From the IMG/VR virus record IMGVR_UViG_3300045988_147927, positions 1 to 64,000 of that record: 64,000 nt of DNA; one strand, written 5' to 3'. The position numbers and the translations under genes are program-made. Of the stretch, positions 26,117 through 45,854 are shown piece by piece. The stretch's first letter is position 1. Each line of letters opens with the position of its first letter. The notes below the pieces were generated by a model that saw nothing but the letters and a program-made list of their open reading frames with translations, had not been told where the DNA came from and did not search any database. The DNA is from a virus.

Positions 26117-26167
26117 ATGAAAATACTACGTAGTGTTGTTGAGATGGAACATATAGATGGGATTTAT
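26117..26167 (+). CDS. tail-completion / virion-morphogenesis protein, exon 1 (17 codons)
   Basis: ATG after TAGAGGT; MKILRSVVEMEHIDGIY. It is followed by an in-frame TAA, which is the first triplet of the inserted element. Confidence 0.6.
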
Positions 26168-26616
26168 TAAGATGTCAAAATAACAATCATGAATTTATTC
26201 ATAAATATTTTTGACAGAATAGTAAGTCTGTAGGGAAACTTGCAGATAGTAGCAACTAGATGTTGTTCAACAAAGAAACTGAATTGCTGGGAACTCCTAA
26301 AGCTAGCTAAACTACAACGTGATATCTATTAATATGATATGGATGTGAATGTGGCGAAAGCAGAGAAAATTAGTTAGATGGTATAAGGTTAAACCCTAAG
26401 TACTGCGATAATGGATAATCAGCAGCCAAGCCCGTGAGGGAAGGTTCAACGACTATTCCTCGTGAGGGAAGTACATTCAAGCGAATGGAAGTGGTTTCGC
26501 CTAAGTCGTAAAAGTGATATGGATAAGATATAGTCTGTGCTTTATTGAAAGATAAAGATGCACGTAGTGGTGCTGGCTAAGTGGTAGCGTACTTAGTTGA
26601 ACGAGCGTTCTCTCAA
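26168..26616 (+). ncRNA. group I intron catalytic core (copy A)
   Basis: This stretch is more GC-rich than its surroundings. It contains AAGATATAGTC (26525-26535), which I recognise as the classical P7 3' strand and which pairs with GACTAT in GGTTCAACGACTAT. It has GNRA-capped hairpins (CCC-GTGA-GGG; TCTGTAGG-GAAA-CTTGCAGA). The hairpin CTTTAT-TGAAAG-ATAAAG (26540-26557) covaries with copy B. Confidence 0.7.
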
Positions 26617-26718
26617 AAATTTCATAGTTATAGTTATATATTTGATAATAGTTCCTATTAGTATTATAATAAAGATATTAGGATTCTTTATTCAGTATGA
26701 GAGGAGGTGTTATCATCT

Positions 26719-27810
26719 ATGAATAAAAGTTTTAAAGTTAGGATATATCCGACACAAGAACAAAAAATATTGTTAGAAAAGACCTTTGGTGCAAACAGGT
26801 TTGTTTATAATTACTTTCTCAACTTAAAAAGTAAGTTGTATGAGTTTTATAAAATAAGAATTAGTTATAATAATTCTTCTAAGATTCTAACTGAGTTGAA
26901 GAAACAAAAAACTTGGTTTAAAGAAGTTGATAGTGTTTCTTTACAACAAACACTTAGAGATTTAGATAGTGCGTATCAAAACTTTTTTAGTAGGAGATGT
27001 AAATATCCTAAATTTAAGAGAAAAGATGATAAAAACTCATATCGTACTAACTCTAATATTAAAATAGATAATTGGTATATAACAGTTCCTAAGGTGGGAA
27101 TGTTACATTTTAGAGATAAAAACAGATTTAGTGGTGTTACTAAAATTTATAATGTAACAATATCTAAGACATCTAGTGGAAAATATTTTGCTAGCATTTC
27201 AGCTGAGGTTGATATCGCAACTTTTGAGAAAAGCAATCAAAATGTAGGTATAGACTTGGGATTGAAAGATTTTGCTATTCTTAATACTGGAGAAAAGATA
27301 CATAATCCTAGAATATTAAAACATCTTGAAGATAAATACAGAAAGTTAGCTAAATCTGTTTCAAGAAAAGTTAAAGGTTCAGTTAATTATCAAAAAGCTA
27401 GGATTAAGTTAGCTAGGTTTCATGAATACATAGTTAATATACGAAAAGATTTTCTACACAAACTATCTACTAATATAGTTAAGACTTATGATATTATGTG
27501 TATAGAAAATCTCAATATTAGTGGTTTAATGAAAAATCGTAGATTAGAAAAATCATTTCAGAATGTTTCATTGTATGAGTTCATATGGATGTTAGAGTAT
27601 AAAGCTAAGTGGTATGGTAAGACTATTTCTAAAGTAGATAGATTTTATCCATCATCACAGTTATGTTCTAATTGTGGTTATAAGAATAAAGAAGTTAAAA
27701 ATCTTAGCGTTCGTGAGTGGGATTGTCCTGAATGTGGAACTATTCATGATAGAGATATAAACTCAGCAATTAATATTTTGCATGAGGGATTACGACTTTT
27801 AGAGATATAA
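26719..27810 (+). CDS. tnpB: TnpB (IS200/IS605 OrfB-type RNA-guided nuclease), apparently intact
   Basis: GAGGAGGTG RBS. N-terminal [13 protein letters not shown]. RuvC residues in [18 protein letters not shown] and [11 protein letters not shown]. Zinc ribbon CSNCGYKN...WDCPECG. Confidence 0.85.
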
Positions 27811-27817
27811 ATATATG

Positions 27818-27948
27818 AATATATAAGTATAACTGTGGGACACATGGGGATAGCCTATTGTCTGGTTGTAAGACTCTTTTAACATAGTATTAAAAGAGCG
27901 AACCATTGGGTAGGAACCTCACTGACTTTGAGTCATAGAGGATGTCAG
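27818..27948 (+). ncRNA. conserved 3'-terminal RNA module of element A (putative omega-RNA scaffold overlapping the intron 3' end)
   Basis: About 130 nt, nearly identical to 32876..33009 and clearly related to 42229..42359. Ends GAGGATGTCAG. The terminal hairpin TGACT-TTG-AGTCA covaries between copies. Confidence 0.65.
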
Positions 27949-28512
27949 ATTACTGTATCTCAACATATGTTAAAGCTAGGTTCTAAAAGGATACAAAAGG
28001 AGTTAGGGAGTCTTTATTATCAAGACTTCCTAATATTTATGGCTGTTACTTTAGCTAAAGAGTTTGAACGTGCTATAGATACACAAAGATATAAAGGTAC
28101 TAAGTGGGCGCCCTTGTCGATTTCTTATTTAACATATAAACAGAGAAAGAATTTATCTCTTAATATATGGGAGGCGACCGGTTATTTAAAGAATAGTATT
28201 ACTGTATTCAAGAAGTTTACTAATTTTATTGCAGTAGGTTTTCAACAAAAACAATATTATCCTAATAGTGGAGCACAGGTAAATATGGTTGCTCGGTATG
28301 TTGAGTATGGTACTAATAGGAATACAGTAAATGGTAAGAAAACAATGCCAGCTAGACCTTTATTTAGACCTATAGCTAGTTATGTTTCTAAACATATATC
28401 AAGGTATTATAAGACTTATCTAAAAGAGATAGATAAACTCAGAAATAAAAAGATACCATACTTATATCTTAGGAATAAGAGTGTTAAAAGGTCATCTAAA
28501 AATAGGAAGTAG
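27949..28512 (+). CDS. tail-completion / virion-morphogenesis protein (Mu gpG / HK97 gp10-like), exon 2
   Basis: KWAPLSISYLTYKQRKN...IWEATGYLKNSI...VGF...YVEYGT...MPARPLFRP matches the W-x-PL...sG-x-L-x-S...PaRpF pattern of tail-completion proteins. There is no start or RBS at the exon boundary. Confidence 0.65.
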   Translation: MTVSQHMLKLGSKRIQKELGSLYYQDFLIFMAVTLAKEFERAIDTQRYKGTKWAPLSISYLTYKQRKNLSLNIWEATGYLKNSITVFKKFTNFIAVGFQQKQYYPNSGAQVNMVARYVEYGTNRNTVNGKKTMPARPLFRPIASYVSKHISRYYKTYLKEIDKLRNKKIPYLYLRNKSVKRSSKNRK

Positions 28513-32871: not shown

Positions 32872-33009
32872 TATATTATAAGTATAACCGTGGGACACAT
32901 GGGGATAGCCTATTGTCTGGTTGTAAGACTCTTTTAACATAGTATTAAAAGAGCGAACCGTTGGGTAGGAACCTCACTGACTTAATTAAAAGTCAAGAGA
33001 GGATGTCAG
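32864..33009 (+). mobile_element. solo copy of the IStron 3'-terminal RNA module (orphan omega-RNA-like / right-end remnant)
   Basis: AAGTATAACCGTGGGACACATGGGGATAGCCTATTGTCTGGTTGTAAGACTCTTTTAACATAGTATTAAAAGAGCGAACCGTTGGGTAGGAACCTCACTGACTT...GAGGATGTCAG differs from 27818..27948 by only a few substitutions plus a changed terminal hairpin. No ribozyme core or tnpB is adjacent. Confidence 0.75.
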
Positions 33010-39696: not shown

Positions 39697-40053
39697 ATGC
39701 ATAAACCGTCATTAATAAAAACAGAAATAACACAGTCTTTTACAAGTAGACAGGATAAAATATCTCGATATTCTAAATTAAAGAGGTTAGTTAATCTCAA
39801 TGGTGATACATATATAGAAACACCTAACAAGTTTACAATAGAGGAGAGTAATAGGGATATTTACTACTCTGTTGAGAAAGGTTTTGAGGATAGATTAGAT
39901 TTAATATCTAATAAATTTTATGGTACACCGTTAATGTACTGGGCAATAGCTGTTATGAATCATATAGATAACCCTTTAGATGTTCCTGTAGGTGTTGTGT
40001 TGAGGATACCAGCCATTGAGTCCATTTACGATACAGGGGTGATTCAAATTTGA
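39697..40053 (+). CDS. LysM-like tail protein (P2 gpX / XkdP-like)
   Basis: FEDRLDLISNKFYGTPLMYWAIAVMNHIDNPLDVPVGVVLRIP is a LysM-type pattern, in the conserved position upstream of the hub gene. Confidence 0.6.
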   Translation: MHKPSLIKTEITQSFTSRQDKISRYSKLKRLVNLNGDTYIETPNKFTIEESNRDIYYSVEKGFEDRLDLISNKFYGTPLMYWAIAVMNHIDNPLDVPVGVVLRIPAIESIYDTGVIQI

Positions 40054-40541
40054 GTGATTACAAAGATAGTCTTATTACTAGAAATTTAAGTCCTCATCAG
40101 CCTCTATATGCTTTTATAGATTTAAGTATTGATGGGCATAATATATCATATTTCGGTAATAAAGAATTTAATGATTCAGTAATTAGTCTTAATGTGGAAA
40201 GAAAAGGTACTTCTAATCAAGATTTAGCTGGTTCTACTTTTGATATAGAGTTGTATGATGATACTGCTTTAAGAATAGAAGAGCTGTTAGCGAATACTAT
40301 ACCAGCAGGTTCAAATTTTAAGACCGCTAAAGAGTTGAAAGATACTGGTAATAAGGTTACTGATGGTAATATCGAGTGGAAACAACAAGAGGAAGCTAAG
40401 AAAAAAGAGCAGGCAGAGAAGGATAATACATATACAGAGGAAGATGAAAAGAAAGACCCTAATCATAAAGCAGGCACTAAAAAACAGTCTGGTGGTGCAA
40501 CTCAGTCTGGAAATGTTAGGTGTAAATATGGATGGTGTGAT
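40050..40541 (+). CDS. baseplate hub / late-control-D-like multidomain protein, exon 1 (164 codons)
   Basis: TTG start after AGGGGTG. Ends ...NVRCKYGWCD, then an in-frame TAA that is the first triplet of element B. Confidence 0.65.
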
Positions 40542-41028
40542 TAAATGTGCTACATATATTCATAGTTATAGTTATGAATAGGTATGTATATAGCACGTAT
40601 AGTCCATACATCTAGTGATAGGTGTGTGTCGAGTGGTAACACTCGGAGATTCATTGAATTGCTGGAAAGTCCTAAAGCTCAATTAACTACAACGTGATAT
40701 CTAATAATATGATATGAGCGTGAATGGTAGCGAAAGCAGAAAAAATAATTGAGATGGTATAAGGTGAAATAAAAGCTATATCACATATGATATAGTCCTA
40801 AGTACTGAGATAATGGACAATCAGCAGCCAAGCACGTAAGTGAAGGTTCAACGACTATCCTGTGAAGGAGTACGGCTCTAGTGAGTGGGTGAGAATCCCT
40901 TAAATGGAAGTGGTGAAGGTCTTTCAGATAGAAAGATTAAGATATAGTCTGTGCCTACATGAAAGTGTAGGATGCACGTAGTGGTGCTGGCTAGAAGTAG
41001 CGATTCTAGTTGAACGAGCATCCTCTCA
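40542..41028 (+). ncRNA. group I intron catalytic core (copy B)
   Basis: AAGATATAGTC at 40939-40949. GGTTCAACGACTAT. Hairpins CGAGTG-GTAA-CACTCG and CAC-GTAA-GTG. CCTACA-TGAAAG-TGTAGG (40954-40971) covaries with copy A. Confidence 0.7.
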
Positions 41029-41131
41029 TAGAGAGTTTTATGGTTTTATATATATTGAAATTAATCTCCTTTTGTAGTACATTAATAATATAATGTTTAT
41101 TGTTAATGATACGAAAGGGGGTGTAAATCTC

Positions 41132-42224
41132 GTGAATAAGAGTTTTAAAGTTAGGATTTATCCAAATCAAGAACAGAAAGTCTTGATTGATAAGACATTT
41201 GGATGTGCAAGATTCATATACAATTTTATGTTGAATCTGAAACAAAAATTGTATGAGTATCATAATATTTCTTTAGGTTTTTATGACCTATCTAAGATTC
41301 TTACAGAAATTAAAAGACATAAATTGTGGCTTAAAGAAGTTGATAAGTGGGCATTACAAAATGCTTTAAAAGATTTAGATAGTGCTTATAAAAGATTTTA
41401 TAATGGTGGTGGATTTCCTAAGTTTAAATCTAAAAAGCGAGATAAAAACTCCTATCGTACAAATCATAGAATACAGTTAATTGTAGATAATAAGAAAGTT
41501 AAAATTTCCTAAAGTTGGTAGTATTAAGTTCAGAGATAAAAGTAGATTTGATGGAATTACTAAAATTTATAATATCACTATTTCTAGGACATCTAGTGGA
41601 AAATATTATGCTAGTATATCTGCTGAGGTTAATATTGAACATTTTGAGAAAACCAATCAGAGTGTGGGTATTGACTTGGGATTAAAAGATTTCTGTATCT
41701 TAAATGATGGAACTAAGTTTGAAAATCCTAAATTTTTAGTTAGAAATGAAAAGCGACTTAGATTACTTCAAAAATCGTTAAGTCGCAAGATTTGTGGTTC
41801 TAAAAACTATGAAAAAGCTAAGATAAAGTTAGCTAAATTTCATGAGTATATTGTTAATTTTCGTAAAGATTATTTACATAAAATATCGTTATATTTGGTT
41901 AGAAATTATGATATTTTATGTGCAGAAACATTGAGAGTTAAGAATATGGTAAAGAATCATAAGTTAGCTAAATCAATTAGTGATGTTAGTTGGTATGAAT
42001 TTTGTAGGCAGTTAGAGTATAAGTGTCTGTGGTATGGAAAGAGATTTGTACAGATTAGTACATATTTTGCATCATCACAAATATGTTCTAATTGTGGGTA
42101 TAAGAATTCTGATGTTAAAAATCTCAATGTAAGAGAATGGACTTGCTCTAAATGTGGCAGTCATAATGAAAGAGATATCAATGCATCGATTAATATTTTG
42201 CATGAAGGATTAAGAATTATATAA
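41132..42224 (+). pseudogene. tnpB: tnpB with a single frameshift near nt 41490-41510
   Basis: GTG start after GAAAGGGGGTG. The N-terminal frame stops at 41510-41512 (...DNKKVKIS*). The continuation [45 protein letters not shown]...GIDLGLKDF is in the +1 frame. The downstream RuvC and zinc-ribbon motifs are intact. Confidence 0.75.
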
Positions 42225-42228
42225 TTTC

Positions 42229-42359
42229 AGTATATAGAACCATAGGACATATGGGGATAGCCTACTGTCATAGTGTAAGACGTATAGTGAATCTGTTTCA
42301 TTATGTGTAATTATTGGGTAGGAACTTCGTCACTTTAATGAGTGGTGAGAGGATGTCAG
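42229..42359 (+). ncRNA. 3'-terminal RNA module of element B
   Basis: GGACATATGGGGATAGCCTACTGTC...TTGGGTAGGAACTTCGTCACTTTAATGAGTGGTGAGAGGATGTCAG is homologous to 27818..27948. Confidence 0.6.
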
Positions 42360-45300
42360 AGAAAAGGTCAAGTAATAGAAGATATTTCTCTTATAGGGAA
42401 GGCTTTAAAATATACCTTAGCTTTTGAGGGGCCTGCTTTAACCCTAACATTAAATTGTGTGGCTGAGGCTGATGTTAAGACTACGCAAAAGTTGAATATG
42501 GAGTTTAGCGCTGAAAAGTTTGGGGGTAAGCCATCAGATATTGTTAGAGCATTATGTGAGAAAGCTCATATCAAGATTGGTCGGATTGTAGAAACAAAAC
42601 CAATCTTAGGTGATGATGGTAAACCTAAAGAGTTTAAGATGGGTTCTCGTACTATGAGGGAGTTTATTGCAGATGAGTTGTTAGAAAAAGCTACACCTAC
42701 TGATTCTGATAAACCTGGTTATAAATTCTTTTTGCAAGTTGTTGATGGGGAAGAGAAAGCATTTTTTGTTCCTAATGATATGTATGGTGATATGACTGTT
42801 ATCACATATAAGAAGATGGAAGAGACTACAACAACTACTACAACCACAACAACTTCTAATGATAAGCCTAGTGGGTTAAGTCCGTATCAAAAAGTTATGG
42901 GTGTATCTACGCCAATTCTAGGGCATACAAGAGATACTAATGTTAGTGTAGTAGGTGATGGTAAGGTTGTCTTTGTAGGTGATTTTAGAGTTAGAGATTT
43001 ACAAAATTCAGTACCTGATAATAAAGATTTAATGTATATCTATGATGATAAAGCTAATTATAGGTGGTTAAAGGATAACTTTGAATTAATAGAGTCTAAG
43101 TTACATATGGGGTATCGTGTATATTTTATGTTAGGGCATAATGATATAGACAATATTCTTAATTATGTTGAGTTTTATAATAAAGTAGCTAAAGAATTAG
43201 ATACAAAGGGTGTTCAAGTCTTTGTTGTATCTGTTTTACCTGTTTTCATGGGTAAAACAGATTTACATAATAGTAATATACAACGATTTAATAATGCTAT
43301 AAATCAGAATAGAGTTAGGGAATTGCATTATGTAAATATTTATGGTGATATTTTAAAGACTTTAAGAAGTAATAATACTAAACAAGATGGTATTTCTTAT
43401 AATAATAGATTAATGCAAGATGTATATAATAGAATAGTCTATTATCGTGAGGATTTAACTACATCTAAGAATATAGGTCTTAGTAGAAGTAATATTATAA
43501 ATGGGTTAGAATTTGTTACACATACATTACCGGATATGTTAAATACAAATTCATATCAAGGTAATGTTTCAGATGATGAGTATTATGGTAGTTTTATTGG
43601 TGTAGAGGAAGATACATCAAACCTAGTAGCATTAGCTTTAGCTGATGCCTCAAATGAGGATATAGCAAATTTACTATCTGAGATGACATTGTGGAAGATG
43701 TACTTAGAGGATGAGAATAATAAGGTATCTAAGGTAGGTATACTTGGTAGTGATAAGACTGAGAGTATCGATAAGTCTAAGTTACAGTTTGATAAAAATA
43801 AATTAGTTAATGCTTTCATAGATGTACTAGATAAGAAGGGATATACTAAGGAAGTTAAAGAGTATGTATCACTTGTAAATACATTTACTGATACTATTAA
43901 AGATAAGAAATTAGATACAACTGATAAATATGTAAATGCTTTGACTATGTTATCTAGCAAACTTGGTAAAGATAGTTCTATTTCAAAAACTATTACTAAT
44001 GTTGTTAAGGTTATTACTGAGAATAAAGATAAGGTTCTTAATGTTAAGGACAAAAAGATTTCTTATGATGATTTAGCTACAGATATAGTTTCTAAATTAC
44101 TACCTAATCAGAGTGCTAATATAAGTAAAATCACTGATAAGGTTTCATCTATTATGAAGTTAGATAGAGATAAGATAAAAAAAGGTGATTATTCTGAATT
44201 ACAAGGAATGTTAGCTAAAGAGCTAGGGATTAATGATAAAGATATTAATAAATATGTAGAGATAGGTAAGACTATATCTGAGATATATAAGAATAGGGAA
44301 TACTTTGACATAAAAGATTTAAGTCTAGTTTCTACTGATTTATTAAAGAGTGTTGTAGGGGAAGAAAAAGTAAAAAAAGTTGAGAAGTATATAGATACTG
44401 CTCAGAATTTATACAAGGCTTTTAGTGGTGCTAAAGATATAAAGGATATCAATAGTGCTGTAACTTCTTTGTCTGATGTGTTAGGTAAGAATACAAAAAT
44501 TAATAGGTATATAGATACTGCTAGGTCTTTTATGGATATCATTAATAAAGGTAGTGTTGGTACAGGCATCATTAATACTAATAATGGAATTAGTAAAATC
44601 ATAAATGATAGGTTGCCTAATATAGCACAGGCAGGTACTTTAGGTGGAGTTGTGGCATCTACTGTAGGTATATCACCAACTTCTACTAAAGAGGTGTTAA
44701 AGGCTTATGTTCCTAAAGGTGTTGATAGTGGTGTTACTAAGGTAAATGGTAGTCCTACTGATGGTACTAAGACAGGTCAATCATCTAATGTTACAAAAGA
44801 TGGGATATCAGATGAGGAAATGAAGAAAGGTGTTAGGTCTGTTACTTTTGGTGGTAAAAAGACTAAAATGGAGATTTGTGGTGAGTATGAGATTTACACA
44901 GGAAGACCTGATGGTAGGGTAATTAGTTTCTCACCAGAGTTTGAGAGTGATAATATAGCTACAAATAAAGTACCTACAAGTGCATTGACAATAGATGGTG
45001 TTAGGAATGAGATGCTAGAGTGTACTATTGAGGGTGTTGGTGGTGCTTTAGCTAGTGATGCTTATATGGAGAGGTCTAATCAAGAGGGGAGTAGTAATGT
45101 TGGTGTTGTGTTAGGTATGAGTGGTTCTTCTTTCAAGAATTTAGAATCATCAGCCGCAAGTATGTGGAGTCGATATTTTAGTTCTGTATATGGTGCTAGT
45201 TTAGAGATATTAGGCGATACTAGAGTTAAGTTTCAAGGACATATCAAGATAGCAGTTTATACTAAGTACGGTTTTTTACACCATACCAGTGGTATTTACA

Positions 45301-45854
45301 ATATACAAGGTATAACAGATTCTATTAATGGTGGTATGTTTACTACTACACTTGATTTACAGAAAAATAGTGATGAAGTTAAGAAAAAGAAAAAAGGAAA
45401 GGAAAAGAATAAAGTGGATGAAACAAAAGGACATGATGTAGGTGATGGTAAATACTGGGTTAAACAAAGTGGCAAGGTATCTTTAGAGGGTGCTATAAGT
45501 GGGATACCTAGTGCTTTAGATATGTTAGGTAAGTGGTTCTATGATAGGTCAGGGCATAAGTTGGTTGTTACCTCTGTTACTGATGGAGACCATGCATATG
45601 GTGAACACTGTCATGCTAATGGTTGGAAGATGGATGTCAATGATTGGTATGGGCCAGAGGGGTTACAAGGTGGATTAATTATTAATAGTGATGATACACC
45701 TGGCTCGATTTGTCTTGACTTTATTGAATATGGTAGGTCTATAGGTCTAGGTATGAATTTTGAGGGAGACCATATAGATATTCAAATGGATGGCACTGAG
45801 TGGAATGAAAATAATCCTGGTGGTGCTAAAGATAATGGTGGTTTTAGAGGATAG
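42360..45854 (+). CDS. baseplate hub multidomain protein, exon 2 (1164 codons) with SGNH-like and LAS/M15-like peptidase domains
   Basis: Begins RKGQVIEDISLIGKALKYTLAFEGPALTLTLNC (hub-type beta region). It has a poly-Thr linker (T9), then VVFVGDFRVRDL...YFMLGHNDI...VVSVLPV (SGNH-like), a long Lys-rich repeat region, and C-terminal SGHKLVVTSVTDGDHAYGEHCHANGWKMDV (zinc D,D-/L,D-peptidase-like). Confidence 0.65.
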   Translation, partial: RKGQVIEDISLIGKALKYTLAFEGPALTLTLNCVAEADVKTTQKLNMEFSAEKFGGKPSDIVRALCEKAHIKIGRIVETKPILGDDGKPKEFKMGSRTMREFIADELLEKATPTDSDKPGYKFFLQVVDGEEKAFFVPNDMYGDMTVITYKKMEETTTTTTTTTTSNDKPSGLSPYQKVMGVSTPILGHTRDTNVSVVGDGKVVFVGDFRVRDLQNSVPDNKDLMYIYDDKANYRWLKDNFELIESKLHMGYRVYFMLGHNDIDNILNYVEFYNKVAKELDTKGVQVFVVSVLPVFMGKTDLHNSNIQRFNNAINQNRVRELHYVNIYGDILKTLRSNNTKQDGISYNNRLMQDVYNRIVYYREDLTTSKNIGLSRSNIINGLEFVTHTLPDMLNTNSYQGNVSDDEYYGSFIGVEEDTSNLVALALADASNEDIANLLSEMTLWKMYLEDENNKVSKVGILGSDKTESIDKSKLQFDKNKLVNAFIDVLDKKGYTKEVKEYVSLVNTFTDTIKDKKLDTTDKYVNALTMLSSKLGKDSSISKTITNVVKVITENKDKVLNVKDKKISYDDLATDIVSKLLPNQSANISKITDKVSSIMKLDRDKIKKGDYSELQGMLAKELGINDKDINKYVEIGKTISEIYKNREYFDIKDLSLVSTDLLKSVVGEEKVKKVEKYIDTAQNLYKAFSGAKDIKDINSAVTSLSDVLGKNTKINRYIDTARSFMDIINKGSVGTGIINTNNGISKIINDRLPNIAQAGTLGGVVASTVGISPTSTKEVLKAYVPKGVDSGVTKVNGSPTDGTKTGQSSNVTKDGISDEEMKKGVRSVTFGGKKTKMEICGEYEIYTGRPDGRVISFSPEFESDNIATNKVPTSALTIDGVRNEMLECTIEGVGGALASDAYMERSNQEGSSNVGVVLGMSGSSFKNLESSAASMWSRYFSSVYGASLEILGDTRVKFQGHIKIAVYTKYGFLHHTSGIYNIQGITDSINGGMFTTTLDLQKNSDEVKKKKKGKEKNKVDETKGHDVGDGKYWVKQSGKVSLEGAISGIPSALDMLGKWFYDRSGHKLVVTSVTDGDHAYGEHCHANGWKMDVNDWYGPEGLQGGLIINSDDTPGSICLDFIEYGRSIGLGMNFEGDHIDIQMDGTEWNENNPGGAKDNGGFRG

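What the first reader, a model, noticed from the sequence alone, without database searches (positions are those of the whole stretch)
26536..26564. Compensatory base changes between the two intron copies support a conserved RNA fold
Directly 3' of the AAGATATAGTC motif, copy A has C-TTTAT [TGAAAG] ATAAA-G (26540-26557). Copy B has C-CTACA [TGAAAG] TGTAG-G (40954-40971).

Four of the six stem positions differ, and every change is matched by the complementary change on the other strand. The loop is identical.

The same holds elsewhere:
- CCC-GTGA-GGG in A versus CAC-GTAA-GTG in B.
- The 5' hairpins TCTGTAGG-GAAA-CTTGCAGA in A versus CGAGTG-GTAA-CACTCG in B.
- The terminal hairpin just before GAGGATGTCAG: TGACT/AGTCA in A, TGACTT/AAGTCA in the solo copy, CACT/AGTG in B.

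This is direct in-sequence evidence that these regions function as RNA, not protein or DNA sites.
Basis: seen in the sequence. Interest (0 to 1): 0.7.

Follow-up and report, generated by a model that had tools for sequence, protein, structure and literature searches.

The report
P9 hairpin of phage IStron introns

Summary
At 26540-26557 (copy A) and 40954-40971 (copy B) there is a 7-bp stem with a GAAA tetraloop. Four stem pairs differ between the copies and all remain Watson-Crick.

It is helix P9 of a subgroup IA2 group I intron. Rfam Intron_gpI matches both copies above its gathering score when 0.5-kb slices are searched (68.6 and 75.1 bits against 50). The model's last helix lies on this hairpin.

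Evidence for the fold:
- In 17 distinct homologues, 97% of cells pair across 100 helix pairs, against 35-40% when partners are slid. 66 pairs show double changes.
- Of 132 distinct related phage introns, 111 carry a 7-bp, 4-nt-loop hairpin at this position. Shuffles give about 1.4.

Both copies are IS200/IS605-family ("group A", CdISt1-like) IStrons: ribozyme, then tnpB, then an omega-RNA-like 3' module ending in TCAG. Related phages have empty sites that match the predicted exon junctions exactly.

- The "5' hairpin" comparison pairs non-homologous helices (A's P2 with B's P2.1).
- The terminal hairpin could act as RNA, as single-stranded DNA, or both.

Verdict: a new member of a known kind, of modest interest.

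The parts
26540..26557 (+). Copy A, helix P9. The stem is 26540-26546 paired with 26551-26557, capped by the L9 GAAA tetraloop at 26547-26550. This is the finding itself.
   Evidence: Sequence. It aligns to the last helix of Rfam RF00028. In 17 distinct homologues it is 100% paired, and 6 of 7 pairs show double changes (helix 19).
40954..40971 (+). Copy B, helix P9. The stem is 40954-40960 paired with 40965-40971, capped by a GAAA loop at 40961-40964.
26168..27948 (+). IStron A, 1781 nt. It inserts after TTTAT, starts with TAA and ends with GTCAG. It splits a 204-aa phage gene into exon 1 (26117-26167) and exon 2 (27949-28512).
   Evidence: The exons join in frame. About 35 related viral contigs carry the uninterrupted gene with the junction ...ATTTAT|AT(C/A)ACTGT.
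26222..26597 (+). Ribozyme core of copy A.
- Internal guide sequence: GTAAG 26222-26226.
- P2: 26227-26246. P2.1: 26251-26267.
- P3: 26275-26280 with 26495-26500.
- P4: 26285-26290 with about 26419-26424.
- P6: 26431-26440.
- P7: 26451-26455 with 26531-26535.
- P7.1 and P7.2, then P8 carrying a CCUAAG..UAUGG receptor motif.
- P9, then P9.1 (26560-26563 with 26570-26573) and P9.2 (26576-26582 with 26591-26597).
   Evidence: Rfam RF00028 covers 26222-26557 at 68.6 bits against a gathering score of 50. Helices come from RNAalifold and pair counts. P1 pairing is shown.
26605..26613 (+). 5' strand (GCGTTCTCT) of a long-range helix. It pairs with 27937-27945 (AGAGGATGT) and closes the tnpB/omega-RNA insert. 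It follows the TGAACGA motif at 26598-26604.
   Evidence: 9 bp in A with three G.U pairs, 12 bp in B (41018-41029 with 42345-42356), and a compensatory CTCTTA/TAAGAG variant in L051 and L120.
26719..27810 (+). tnpB of copy A, intact. The ATG is at 26719; the mechanical ORF starts at a GTG at 26707.
   Evidence: Pfam finds HTH_OrfB_IS605, OrfB_IS605 and Cas12f1-like_TNB. It gives a full-length match to ISDra2 TnpB structures 8H1J/8EXA at E about 1e-90.
27811..27948 (+). 3' module of copy A, an omega-RNA-like scaffold that is also the transposon right end.
- CTGTG/CATGG hairpin.
- CCTAT/GTAGG long-range stem.
- Internal 9-bp hairpin.
- CCTC (27917-27920) with GAGG (27938-27941).
- Terminal hairpin TGACT 27923-27927 with AGTCA 27931-27935.
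- The terminal G at 27948 is the 3' splice site.
   Evidence: Alignment of 17 modules and RNAalifold. No Rfam family matches.
40542..42359 (+). IStron B, 1818 nt, inserted after GTGAT. It splits a 1329-aa gene into 40050-40541 and 42360-45854.
   Evidence: L198 and L199 encode the junction region at 100% amino-acid identity without interruption...GGTGTGAT|AGAAAAGGTC. Rfam RF00028 covers 40602-40971 at 75.1 bits.
41132..42224 (+). tnpB of copy B. It has one frameshift near 41500-41512 and is probably a pseudogene. It is about 60% identical in amino acids to TnpB A.
32872..33009 (+). Solo 3' module, with no ribozyme and no tnpB.
   Evidence: The same truncation junction occurs in L249, L253 and L254. 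L252 keeps a tnpB 3' end at the same site, so this is a deletion remnant.

Best explanation
**What it is.** The flagged hairpin is helix P9 of a subgroup IA2 group I self-splicing intron. It is a 7-bp stem of fixed length capped by a GNRA (GAAA) tetraloop, 4 nt after the 3' strand of P7.

**Why the stem covaries and the loop does not.** The stem acts only as a rigid spacer, so its sequence drifts through compensatory substitutions. The loop is conserved because, in group I introns, L9 docks into a helix or receptor of the P4-P6 domain and clamps the two halves of the ribozyme together. This docking is established knowledge for the family and is inferred here, not shown.

**The larger element.** Each intron is the 5' part of an IS200/IS605-family ('group A', CdISt1-like) IStron, laid out as follows:
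- The ribozyme, P1 to P9.2.
- A TGAACGA motif.
- An internal promoter-like site.
- tnpB.
- An omega-RNA-like right end finishing in GTCAG.

**How splicing is set up.**
- The internal guide sequence pairs with the target pentanucleotide (TTTAT or GTGAT) that always precedes the element. The transcript can therefore splice from any insertion site.
- A long-range helix (GCGTTCTCT with AGAGGATGT in copy A) loops out the 1.3-kb tnpB/omega-RNA insert. This brings the terminal G to the catalytic core.
- That helix shares its GAGG with the base of the omega-RNA terminal stem. Intron folding and guide-RNA folding are therefore mutually exclusive.

**Shown versus inferred.**
- Shown: the sequences, the covariation, the Rfam match, TnpB homology, exact empty sites and in-frame exon joins.
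- Inferred: actual self-splicing, the L9 docking partner, omega-RNA production and TnpB activity.
For: - Rfam RF00028 matches above its gathering score in both copies, and P9 is the model's last helix.
- RNAalifold finds 99 pairs, 62 with compensatory changes.
- The curated structure including the P3/P7 pseudoknot is 97.1% paired against 35-40% for slid partners. 66 of 100 pairs have double changes and 0 of 500 shuffles reach this.
- 111 of 132 distinct related introns carry the same 7-bp hairpin, with 105 of 111 loops GNRA and 77 distinct stems. Shuffles give 1.36.
- P1 has a U.G pair at the splice site in every homologue. The internal guide sequence tracks the target motif: TTTAT with GUAAG, TTGAT with GUC, CCTAT with GUAGG.
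- The exons join in frame. Empty sites in related phages match the predicted junctions base for base.
- TnpB is identified by Pfam and by PDB matches.
- The architecture matches the published definition of group A IStrons: insertion after TTGAT/TTTAT/ATTAT, a TCAG 3' end, the IS component after P9.2 following GAACGA, a 6-10 bp inverted-repeat stem, and class IA2 with P7.1/P7.2 and P9.0-9.2 (PMC4227781).
- The long-range helix contains G.U pairs and one compensatory variant.
Against: - There is no direct evidence of splicing or of omega-RNA in this organism.
- Whole-window Rfam scans returned nothing. This is explained by speed filters, since 0.5-kb slices score well.
- Copy B's target is GTGAT, not one of the three pentanucleotides listed for group A.
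- No tnpA is present in either element, so current mobility is unproven.
- The structure used was derived from the same alignment, which is partly circular. This is mitigated by the slid-partner control, the independent Rfam structure and the independent survey of 132 sequences.
- The 18 homologues fall into few clades, so the counts are not independent events.
Confidence: 0.93

Rival explanations
1. The paired changes preserve DNA hairpins rather than RNA. These would be single-stranded-DNA stem-loops recognised by an IS200/IS605 TnpA(Y1) transposase, or another DNA-binding site.
For: IS200/IS605 elements do use subterminal ssDNA hairpins. In IS605-family IStrons the right-end hairpin coincides with an omega-RNA stem-loop (10.1101/2023.11.20.567912). 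The hairpin near the left end (alignment A2 columns 54-69) and the terminal right-end hairpin (27923-27935) both covary. They lie where such sites are expected.
Against: - P9 lies about 370 nt inside the element, not at an end.
- It matches the Rfam group I structure.
- It carries an RNA-specific GNRA tetraloop.
- It occurs at the same place in more than 100 related viral-contig introns, collected by an intron-core pattern search that did not require an IS or TnpB.
- Many pairs across the fold are G.U.
- This rival is plausible only as an additional role for the two end hairpins.
Confidence: 0.03
2. The fold is inherited from a once-active intron, but the elements no longer splice. The interrupted genes would then be inactivated or expressed as fragments.
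For: Copy B's tnpB is frameshifted, a solo remnant exists and no tnpA is present. Some decay is therefore ongoing.
Against: - Both elements sit in frame within genes that are uninterrupted and conserved in dozens of related phages.
- The core P, Q, R and S elements and the U.G splice-site pair are intact.
- Copy B's ribozyme scores higher against Rfam than copy A's (75.1 bits) even though its tnpB has decayed. This is what selection for splicing would produce.
Confidence: 0.05
3. The apparent compensation is chance or an alignment artefact between two AT-rich sequences.
Against: P9 is flanked by identical sequence on both sides, so the alignment there is unambiguous. The shuffle, slid-partner and large-survey controls all exclude chance.
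Confidence: 0.01

Closest known systems
CdISt1 / CdiIStron and other 'group A' IS200/IS605-family IStrons (Braun 2000; Hasselmayer 2004; Tourasse 2014, PMC4227781; Zedaveinyte 2023 preprint)
   Same: - IA2 ribozyme at the 5' end.
- Insertion 3' of a T-rich pentanucleotide (TTTAT is one of the listed targets).
- 3' end TCAG.
- IS part after P9.2 and a GAACGA motif.
- A short inverted-repeat stem enclosing the ORF region.
- TnpB-only ('ORF B only') configuration.
- No target duplication.
- Omega-RNA at the right end, with the guide starting at the 3' splice site.
   Different: - The host replicon is an uncultivated phage lineage with contigs of about 200 kb. The 2014 survey lists only IS607-type IStrons in phages (C. 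botulinum phages c-st and D-1873).
- Copy B uses GTGAT.
- TnpB relatives found in the bacterial/archaeal genome collection reach about 40-56% identity over full-length matches.
- No tnpA fragment is present.
Group IA2 introns of Staphylococcus Twortvirinae phages (Twort orf142 ribozyme, PDB 1Y0Q; Silviavirus Romulus/Remus)
   Same: The core at 26282-26456 is about 80% identical in nucleotides to introns in 42 Staphylococcus myophage records. The helix set is the same, with P7.1/P7.2 and a P9 hairpin capped by GNRA.
   Different: In the one Staphylococcus phage region inspected (Romulus) no TnpB or transposase gene is annotated next to the intron match. Here 1.3 kb of tnpB plus omega-RNA lies between P9.2 and the 3' splice site.
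CboIStron / CseIStron (IS607-family, 'group B' IStrons; Zedaveinyte 2023; Mortman & Sternberg 2026, PMC13521648)
   Same: The three-function logic is the same: ribozyme, TnpB with omega-RNA, and transposon ends. A competing fold exists between the intron and the omega-RNA 3' stem.
   Different: Group B elements insert after GG, end in CGG, have a G at the 5' splice site, have long AU-rich inverted repeats and use a serine TnpA. None of these applies here.
ISDra2 TnpB-omega-RNA (IS200/IS605)
   Same: TnpB A aligns over its full length with 8H1J/8EXA (E about 1e-90). Copy A's TTTAT differs from the ISDra2 TTGAT motif (recalled from the literature, not checked here) at its third base and copy B's GTGAT at its first. 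The guide RNA scaffold lies at the right end.
   Different: No intron and no splicing.

Membership tests
Group I intron (Rfam RF00028), subgroup IA2 | Covariance-model score at or above the curated gathering score | tested here: met
   Copy A scores 68.6 bits and copy B 75.1 bits against a gathering score of 50, each over the full model 1-253. Whole-window scans missed both.
Group I intron (Rfam RF00028), subgroup IA2 | Conserved core helices P3-P8 with the P3/P7 pseudoknot, supported by covariation | tested here: met
   P3 has 4 of 6 pairs with double changes. P4 and P7 are invariant. P5, P6 and P8 covary. Overall 97.1% of cells are paired.
Group I intron (Rfam RF00028), subgroup IA2 | IA2 peripheral elements: P7.1 and P7.2 between P7 and P3', and an extended P9 domain | tested here: met
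   Helices 15 and 16 (P7.1, P7.2) and helices 19-21 (P9, P9.1, P9.2) all covary. The criterion comes from PMC4227781.
Group I intron (Rfam RF00028), subgroup IA2 | U.G pair at the 5' splice site within P1, and a terminal G at the 3' splice site | tested here: met
   The U.G pair is present in all 17 homologues examined. The elements end ...GTCAG, and the boundaries are fixed by empty sites.
Group I intron (Rfam RF00028), subgroup IA2 | Self-splicing activity | not testable with these tools
   Only indirect evidence is available: in-frame exon joins identical to uninterrupted alleles.
Group A (IS200/IS605-family) IStron | Insertion immediately 3' of TTGAT/TTTAT/ATTAT, with no target duplication | tested here: met
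   Copy A inserts after TTTAT. Copy B inserts after GTGAT, one base away from TTGAT. Empty sites show no duplication.
Group A (IS200/IS605-family) IStron | 3' terminus TCAG | tested here: met
   GAGGATGTCAG ends copy A, copy B and the solo module.
Group A (IS200/IS605-family) IStron | IS component inserted after P9.2, following a GAACGA-type motif, and enclosed by a 6-10 bp inverted-repeat stem | tested here: met
   TGAACGA lies at 26598-26604 and 41011-41017. The stem is 9 bp in A and 12 bp in B.
Group A (IS200/IS605-family) IStron | ORF B = IS200/IS605-type TnpB | tested here: met
   Pfam OrfB_IS605, HTH_OrfB_IS605 and TNB domains. ISDra2 TnpB structures match at E about 1e-90.
Group A (IS200/IS605-family) IStron | ORF A = Y1 (HUH) TnpA, or a remnant of it | tested here: not met
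   Only about 110 nt separate the GAACGA motif from the tnpB start in both copies, so there is no room for ORF A. 'ORF B only' copies are a listed CdISt1 configuration, so ORF A is not strictly defining.
TnpB omega-RNA | Conserved structured scaffold from the tnpB 3' end to the right end, with the guide continuing into flanking DNA | tested here: inconclusive
   Conserved stems exist with a few compensatory changes, but indels make the alignment poor: only 15 pairs are called. No Rfam family matches and there are no RNA data.

The most novel reading that the evidence does not exclude
These IStrons lack tnpA and are phage-borne. They may spread among co-infecting phages by TnpB/omega-RNA-guided cleavage of empty alleles followed by recombinational copying. 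That would be 'intron homing' driven by an RNA-guided nuclease in a natural phage population.

Supporting observations:
- Insertion A is present in only a few of about 44 related contigs.
- Insertion B is absent from a contig that carries insertion A.

The conserved solo omega-RNA remnant might still supply a guide in trans.
Probability: 0.25. Interest if true: 0.5.

Novelty: new member of a known kind. Interest (0 to 1): 0.25.

Why it matters
For annotation:
- Two apparent gene fragments on each side of each element are single tail-module genes, restored by splicing.
- The 'conserved repeats' are IStrons.

For method:
- Default Rfam scanning of a 64-kb AT-rich window missed two introns that score well above threshold on short slices.

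Biologically, the window adds IS605-type IStrons in a phage lineage to the known range. It also offers natural filled and empty allele pairs, which could be used to test TnpB-driven homing and the competition between intron folding and guide-RNA folding. The RNA fold itself is textbook.

Tried and rejected
- **Whole-window Rfam scans.** The scan at gathering threshold and a 4-kb scan at E<=10 found no intron. I first read this as a real negative. It was overturned by 0.5-kb slices.
- **Megablast against GenBank phages.** This gave only about 80% matches of the 175-nt intron core to Staphylococcus myophages. tblastn with the 1225-aa tail protein gave only distant hits. The phage has no cultivated close relative.
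- **P3 for copy B.** I first paired GATTC with GAATC. I rejected this in favour of TTCATT with GGTGAA, which is in register with the conserved flanks and agrees with the Rfam alignment.
- **GUUCA/UGAAC helix.** RNAalifold proposed pairing alignment columns 360-364 with 556-560. I dropped it because every column is invariant and GUUCA belongs to J6/7-P7.
- **TTGAT at 26641-26645.** I considered this an internal transposon target. I rejected it because it is the -35 part of a TTGATA-17-TATAAT promoter-like site shared with intron-less TnpB elements.
- **L9 receptor.** I tested whether L9 = GAAA correlates with a CCUAAG receptor upstream. The result was 21 of 82 for GAAA against about 1 of 24 for other GNRA loops. 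This is suggestive only, because other GAAA loops exist in the same introns.
- **P10.** Pairing of the 3' exon with the guide sequence was not evident by eye.
- **Guide matches.** The three guide sequences have no second match in the window.
- **Covariance model.** I did not build a custom model. The anchored survey served the same purpose for P9.

Full report
**1. The observation**

- Copy A has C-TTTAT-TGAAAG-ATAAA-G at 26540-26557.
- Copy B has C-CTACA-TGAAAG-TGTAG-G at 40954-40971.
- Each lies four bases after AAGATATAGTC.
- Four of the six stem positions differ and all pairs remain Watson-Crick.
- The 15 nt before and about 18 nt after are identical between the copies, so the alignment there is unambiguous.
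- No ORF of 60 aa or more overlaps the region on either strand.

**2. What the hairpin is**

The whole-window Rfam scan and a 4-kb scan found nothing. Searching 0.5-kb slices gave full-length matches to Intron_gpI (RF00028):
- Copy A, 26222-26557: 68.6 bits, E 1.9e-17.
- Copy B, 40602-40971: 75.1 bits, E 2.6e-19.
- The gathering score is 50, so the earlier negatives were losses to speed filters.

In both alignments the model's final helix (consensus gucagGAAAcugac, P9) falls on the flagged hairpin. The textbook P, Q, R and S elements are visible: AATTGCTGG, AATCAGCAGCC, GGTTCAACGACTAT and AAGATATAGTC. AAGATATAGTC is J8/7 plus the 3' strand of P7.

**3. Covariation with homologues**

A pattern scan of viral contigs for the R and S elements, and a TnpB-based scan, yielded 153 loci. 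Sixteen full-length relatives of the 5' module were aligned with A and B to give alignment A2.
- RNAalifold predicts 99 pairs, 62 with compensatory changes.
- I added the P3/P7 pseudoknot and removed one invariant helix. On this curated structure 97.1% of cells pair, against 35-40% when 3' partners are slid by 1-3 columns.
- 66 of 100 pairs show double changes, and none of 500 shuffles reaches any observed measure.
- P9 (helix 19) is paired in every sequence. Six of its seven pairs change on both sides.
The true loop is a GAAA tetraloop.
- Between A and B alone, 21 pairs are doubly compensated and 10 singly. The nine apparent breaks lie almost entirely where MAFFT misplaced copy B's P7.2-P3'-P8 segment.
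- With Rfam's independent alignment, P3 itself covaries: GAAACU/GGUUUC in A against UUCAUU/GGUGAA in B.

*Independent survey.* This test does not depend on any fitted structure.
- Of 132 distinct sequences that follow GTTCAACGACTA...AAGATATAGTC in viral contigs, 111 have a perfect 7-bp stem with a 4-nt loop.
- In all 111 it starts 4 or 5 nt after P7 (4 nt in 103).
- There are 77 different stem sequences.
- Loops are GAAA 81, GAGA 9, GUGA 9 and GUAA 6.
- Shuffled controls average 1.36, with a maximum of 4.

The hairpin is therefore the canonical P9/L9 element of this intron class.

**4.
- *P6.* CCC-GTGA-GGG against CAC-GTAA-GTG is confirmed and covaries (helix 13).
- *The '5' hairpins'.* The comparison is mis-homologous. 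MAFFT and Rfam both align A's TCTGTAGG-GAAA-CTTGCAGA with B's CATACATCTA-GTGA-TAGGTGTGTG (P2). B's CGAGTG-GTAA-CACTCG aligns with A's AGCAAC-TAGAT-GTTGTT (P2.1). Both helices nevertheless covary across homologues.
- *The terminal hairpin before GAGGATGTCAG.* It is real and shows compensated variants: TGACT/AGTCA, TGACTT/AAGTCA, CACT/AGTG and TGAAT/ATTCA. In IS605-family elements this stem-loop is used as RNA by TnpB and as single-stranded DNA by TnpA(Y1) (10.1101/2023.11.20.567912). 'RNA, not DNA' cannot be concluded for it.

**5. The larger element**

Downstream of each ribozyme lies a TnpB gene.
- Copy A's is intact. Pfam finds OrfB_IS605, HTH_OrfB_IS605 and TNB domains. It matches ISDra2 TnpB structures 8H1J/8EXA over its full length at E about 1e-90.
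- Copy B's carries one frameshift and is only about 60% identical to A. The two are separate lineages, not recent duplicates.

After tnpB comes a module of about 138 nt with conserved stems, ending GAGGATGTCAG.

*Boundaries and exon joins.*
- Joining 26117-26167 to 27949-28512 gives an open reading frame, as does joining 40050-40541 to 42360-45854.
- Related viral contigs carry the same genes uninterrupted, with junctions ...ATTTAT|ATCACTGT... and ...GGTGTGAT|AGAAAAGGTC....
- These match the predicted exon ligation points base for base. Intron boundaries therefore equal transposon boundaries, with no target duplication.
- One contig (IMGVR_UViG_3300008138_000009) has insertion A at 98.5% identity but an empty B site.

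*Match to the published definition.* These features fit group A (IS200/IS605-family, CdISt1-like) IStrons: insertion after TTGAT/TTTAT/ATTAT, a TCAG 3' end, the IS part after P9.2 and a GAACGA motif, a short inverted-repeat stem around the ORF region, and an IA2 ribozyme with P7.1/P7.2 and an extended P9 (PMC4227781).

**6. How it most likely works**
- *P1.* It pairs the last bases of the 5' exon, which are the transposon's target motif, with the guide sequence after AUAG. A U.G pair sits at the splice site in every homologue. The guide tracks the motif: TTTAT/GUAAG, TTGAT/GUC and CCTAT/GUAGG. This lets the element splice from any insertion site.
- *P9.* It presents a GAAA loop at a fixed 7-bp distance from P7. 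In group I introns L9 docks on the P4-P6 domain. I infer that role here from established knowledge of the family. A conserved CCUAAG/UA(A/U)GG receptor-like hairpin at 26384-26400 is a candidate partner, but the test was only suggestive.
- *L2 and P8.* A-type introns pair L2 = GAAA with a canonical 11-nt receptor in P8. B-type introns have L2 = GUGA or GUAA and a plain P8.
- *Long-range helix.* It runs 26605-26613 with 27937-27945 in A (9 bp, three G.U pairs) and is 12 bp in B. L051 and L120 carry a compensated variant. It loops out tnpB and most of the 3' module, and places the terminal G next to the core.
- *Competing folds.* The 3' strand of that helix overlaps the GAGG that pairs with CYTC in the omega-RNA-like fold. 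The two folds are mutually exclusive. This is the same kind of trade-off described experimentally for IS607 IStrons (PMC13521648).
- *Status.* Splicing, omega-RNA production and TnpB activity are inferred, not shown.

**7. Context**
- The window has 31% G+C and no close cultivated relative.
- Its relatives are viral contigs of about 130-213 kb (IMG/VR UViG records), several of which carry multiple TnpB elements, with and without the intron.
- The interrupted genes lie in a tail/morphogenesis module: a weak Phage_tail_S match, and a neighbouring 1225-aa protein with tape-measure/lysin-like similarity.
- The 2014 survey lists only IS607-type IStrons in phages. IS605-type IStrons in a phage lineage are therefore a modest extension of the known range.

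**8. Verdict**

The hairpin is the standard P9 of a known intron class inside a known kind of composite element. This is a new member of a known kind, of low to moderate interest.

Noticed in passing
window 1-64000; 26222-26557 and 40602-40971: Rfam scanning of the whole window at gathering threshold, and of a 4-kb slice at E<=10, reported no group I intron. Both introns score 68.6 and 75.1 bits (gathering score 50) on 0.5-kb slices. This is a filter false negative in AT-rich sequence.
   Followed up: yes
window 32872-33009: A solo omega-RNA-like right-end module with no ribozyme or tnpB. The same truncation junction is conserved in three related contigs (L249, L253, L254). L252 retains a tnpB 3' end at the same site. 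It is therefore a deletion remnant that persists in several phages. Whether it still yields a guide RNA is unknown.
   Followed up: partly
window 26605-26613 with 27937-27945; 41018-41029 with 42345-42356: A long-range helix encloses tnpB and most of the 3' module. Its 3' strand overlaps the GAGG that pairs with CCTC/CTTC (27917-27920) in the omega-RNA-like fold. This implies mutually exclusive intron and guide-RNA conformations.
   Followed up: partly
window 26642-26670: A near-consensus sigma-70-type promoter (TTGATA, 17 nt, TATAAT) lies inside the intron just upstream of tnpB. It is shared with intron-less TnpB elements in related contigs (L131, L135, L136).
   Followed up: partly
window 41132-42224: tnpB of copy B has a single frameshift near 41500-41512, while its ribozyme is intact. 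This is consistent with selection for splicing outlasting selection for the nuclease.
   Followed up: partly
L154-L197, L198-L231 (related viral contigs): The insertions are polymorphic. About 35 of 44 relatives carry gene A uninterrupted, and nearly all relatives carry gene B uninterrupted. Empty A sites differ from copy A's 3' exon at the third base (Ile codon ATT against ATC or ATA), which is position 3 of the presumed guide match.
   Followed up: partly
window 26227-26246 and about 26501-26525; 40605-40628 and about 40916-40938: A possible tertiary-contact co-variation. A-type introns have L2 = GAAA together with a canonical 11-nt receptor (CCUAAG..UAUGG) in P8 (14 of 14). B-type introns have L2 = GUGA or GUAA and a plain P8 helix (4 of 4). 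Only two clades are involved, so this is weak evidence.
   Followed up: no
L123-L127, L130-L137, L153 (related viral contigs): The same TnpB/omega-RNA family also occurs without the ribozyme. In L124, L125, L127 and L153 only a P9.2-like fragment plus a TTGGACGAG motif lies upstream. These may be snapshots of intron gain or loss.
   Followed up: no
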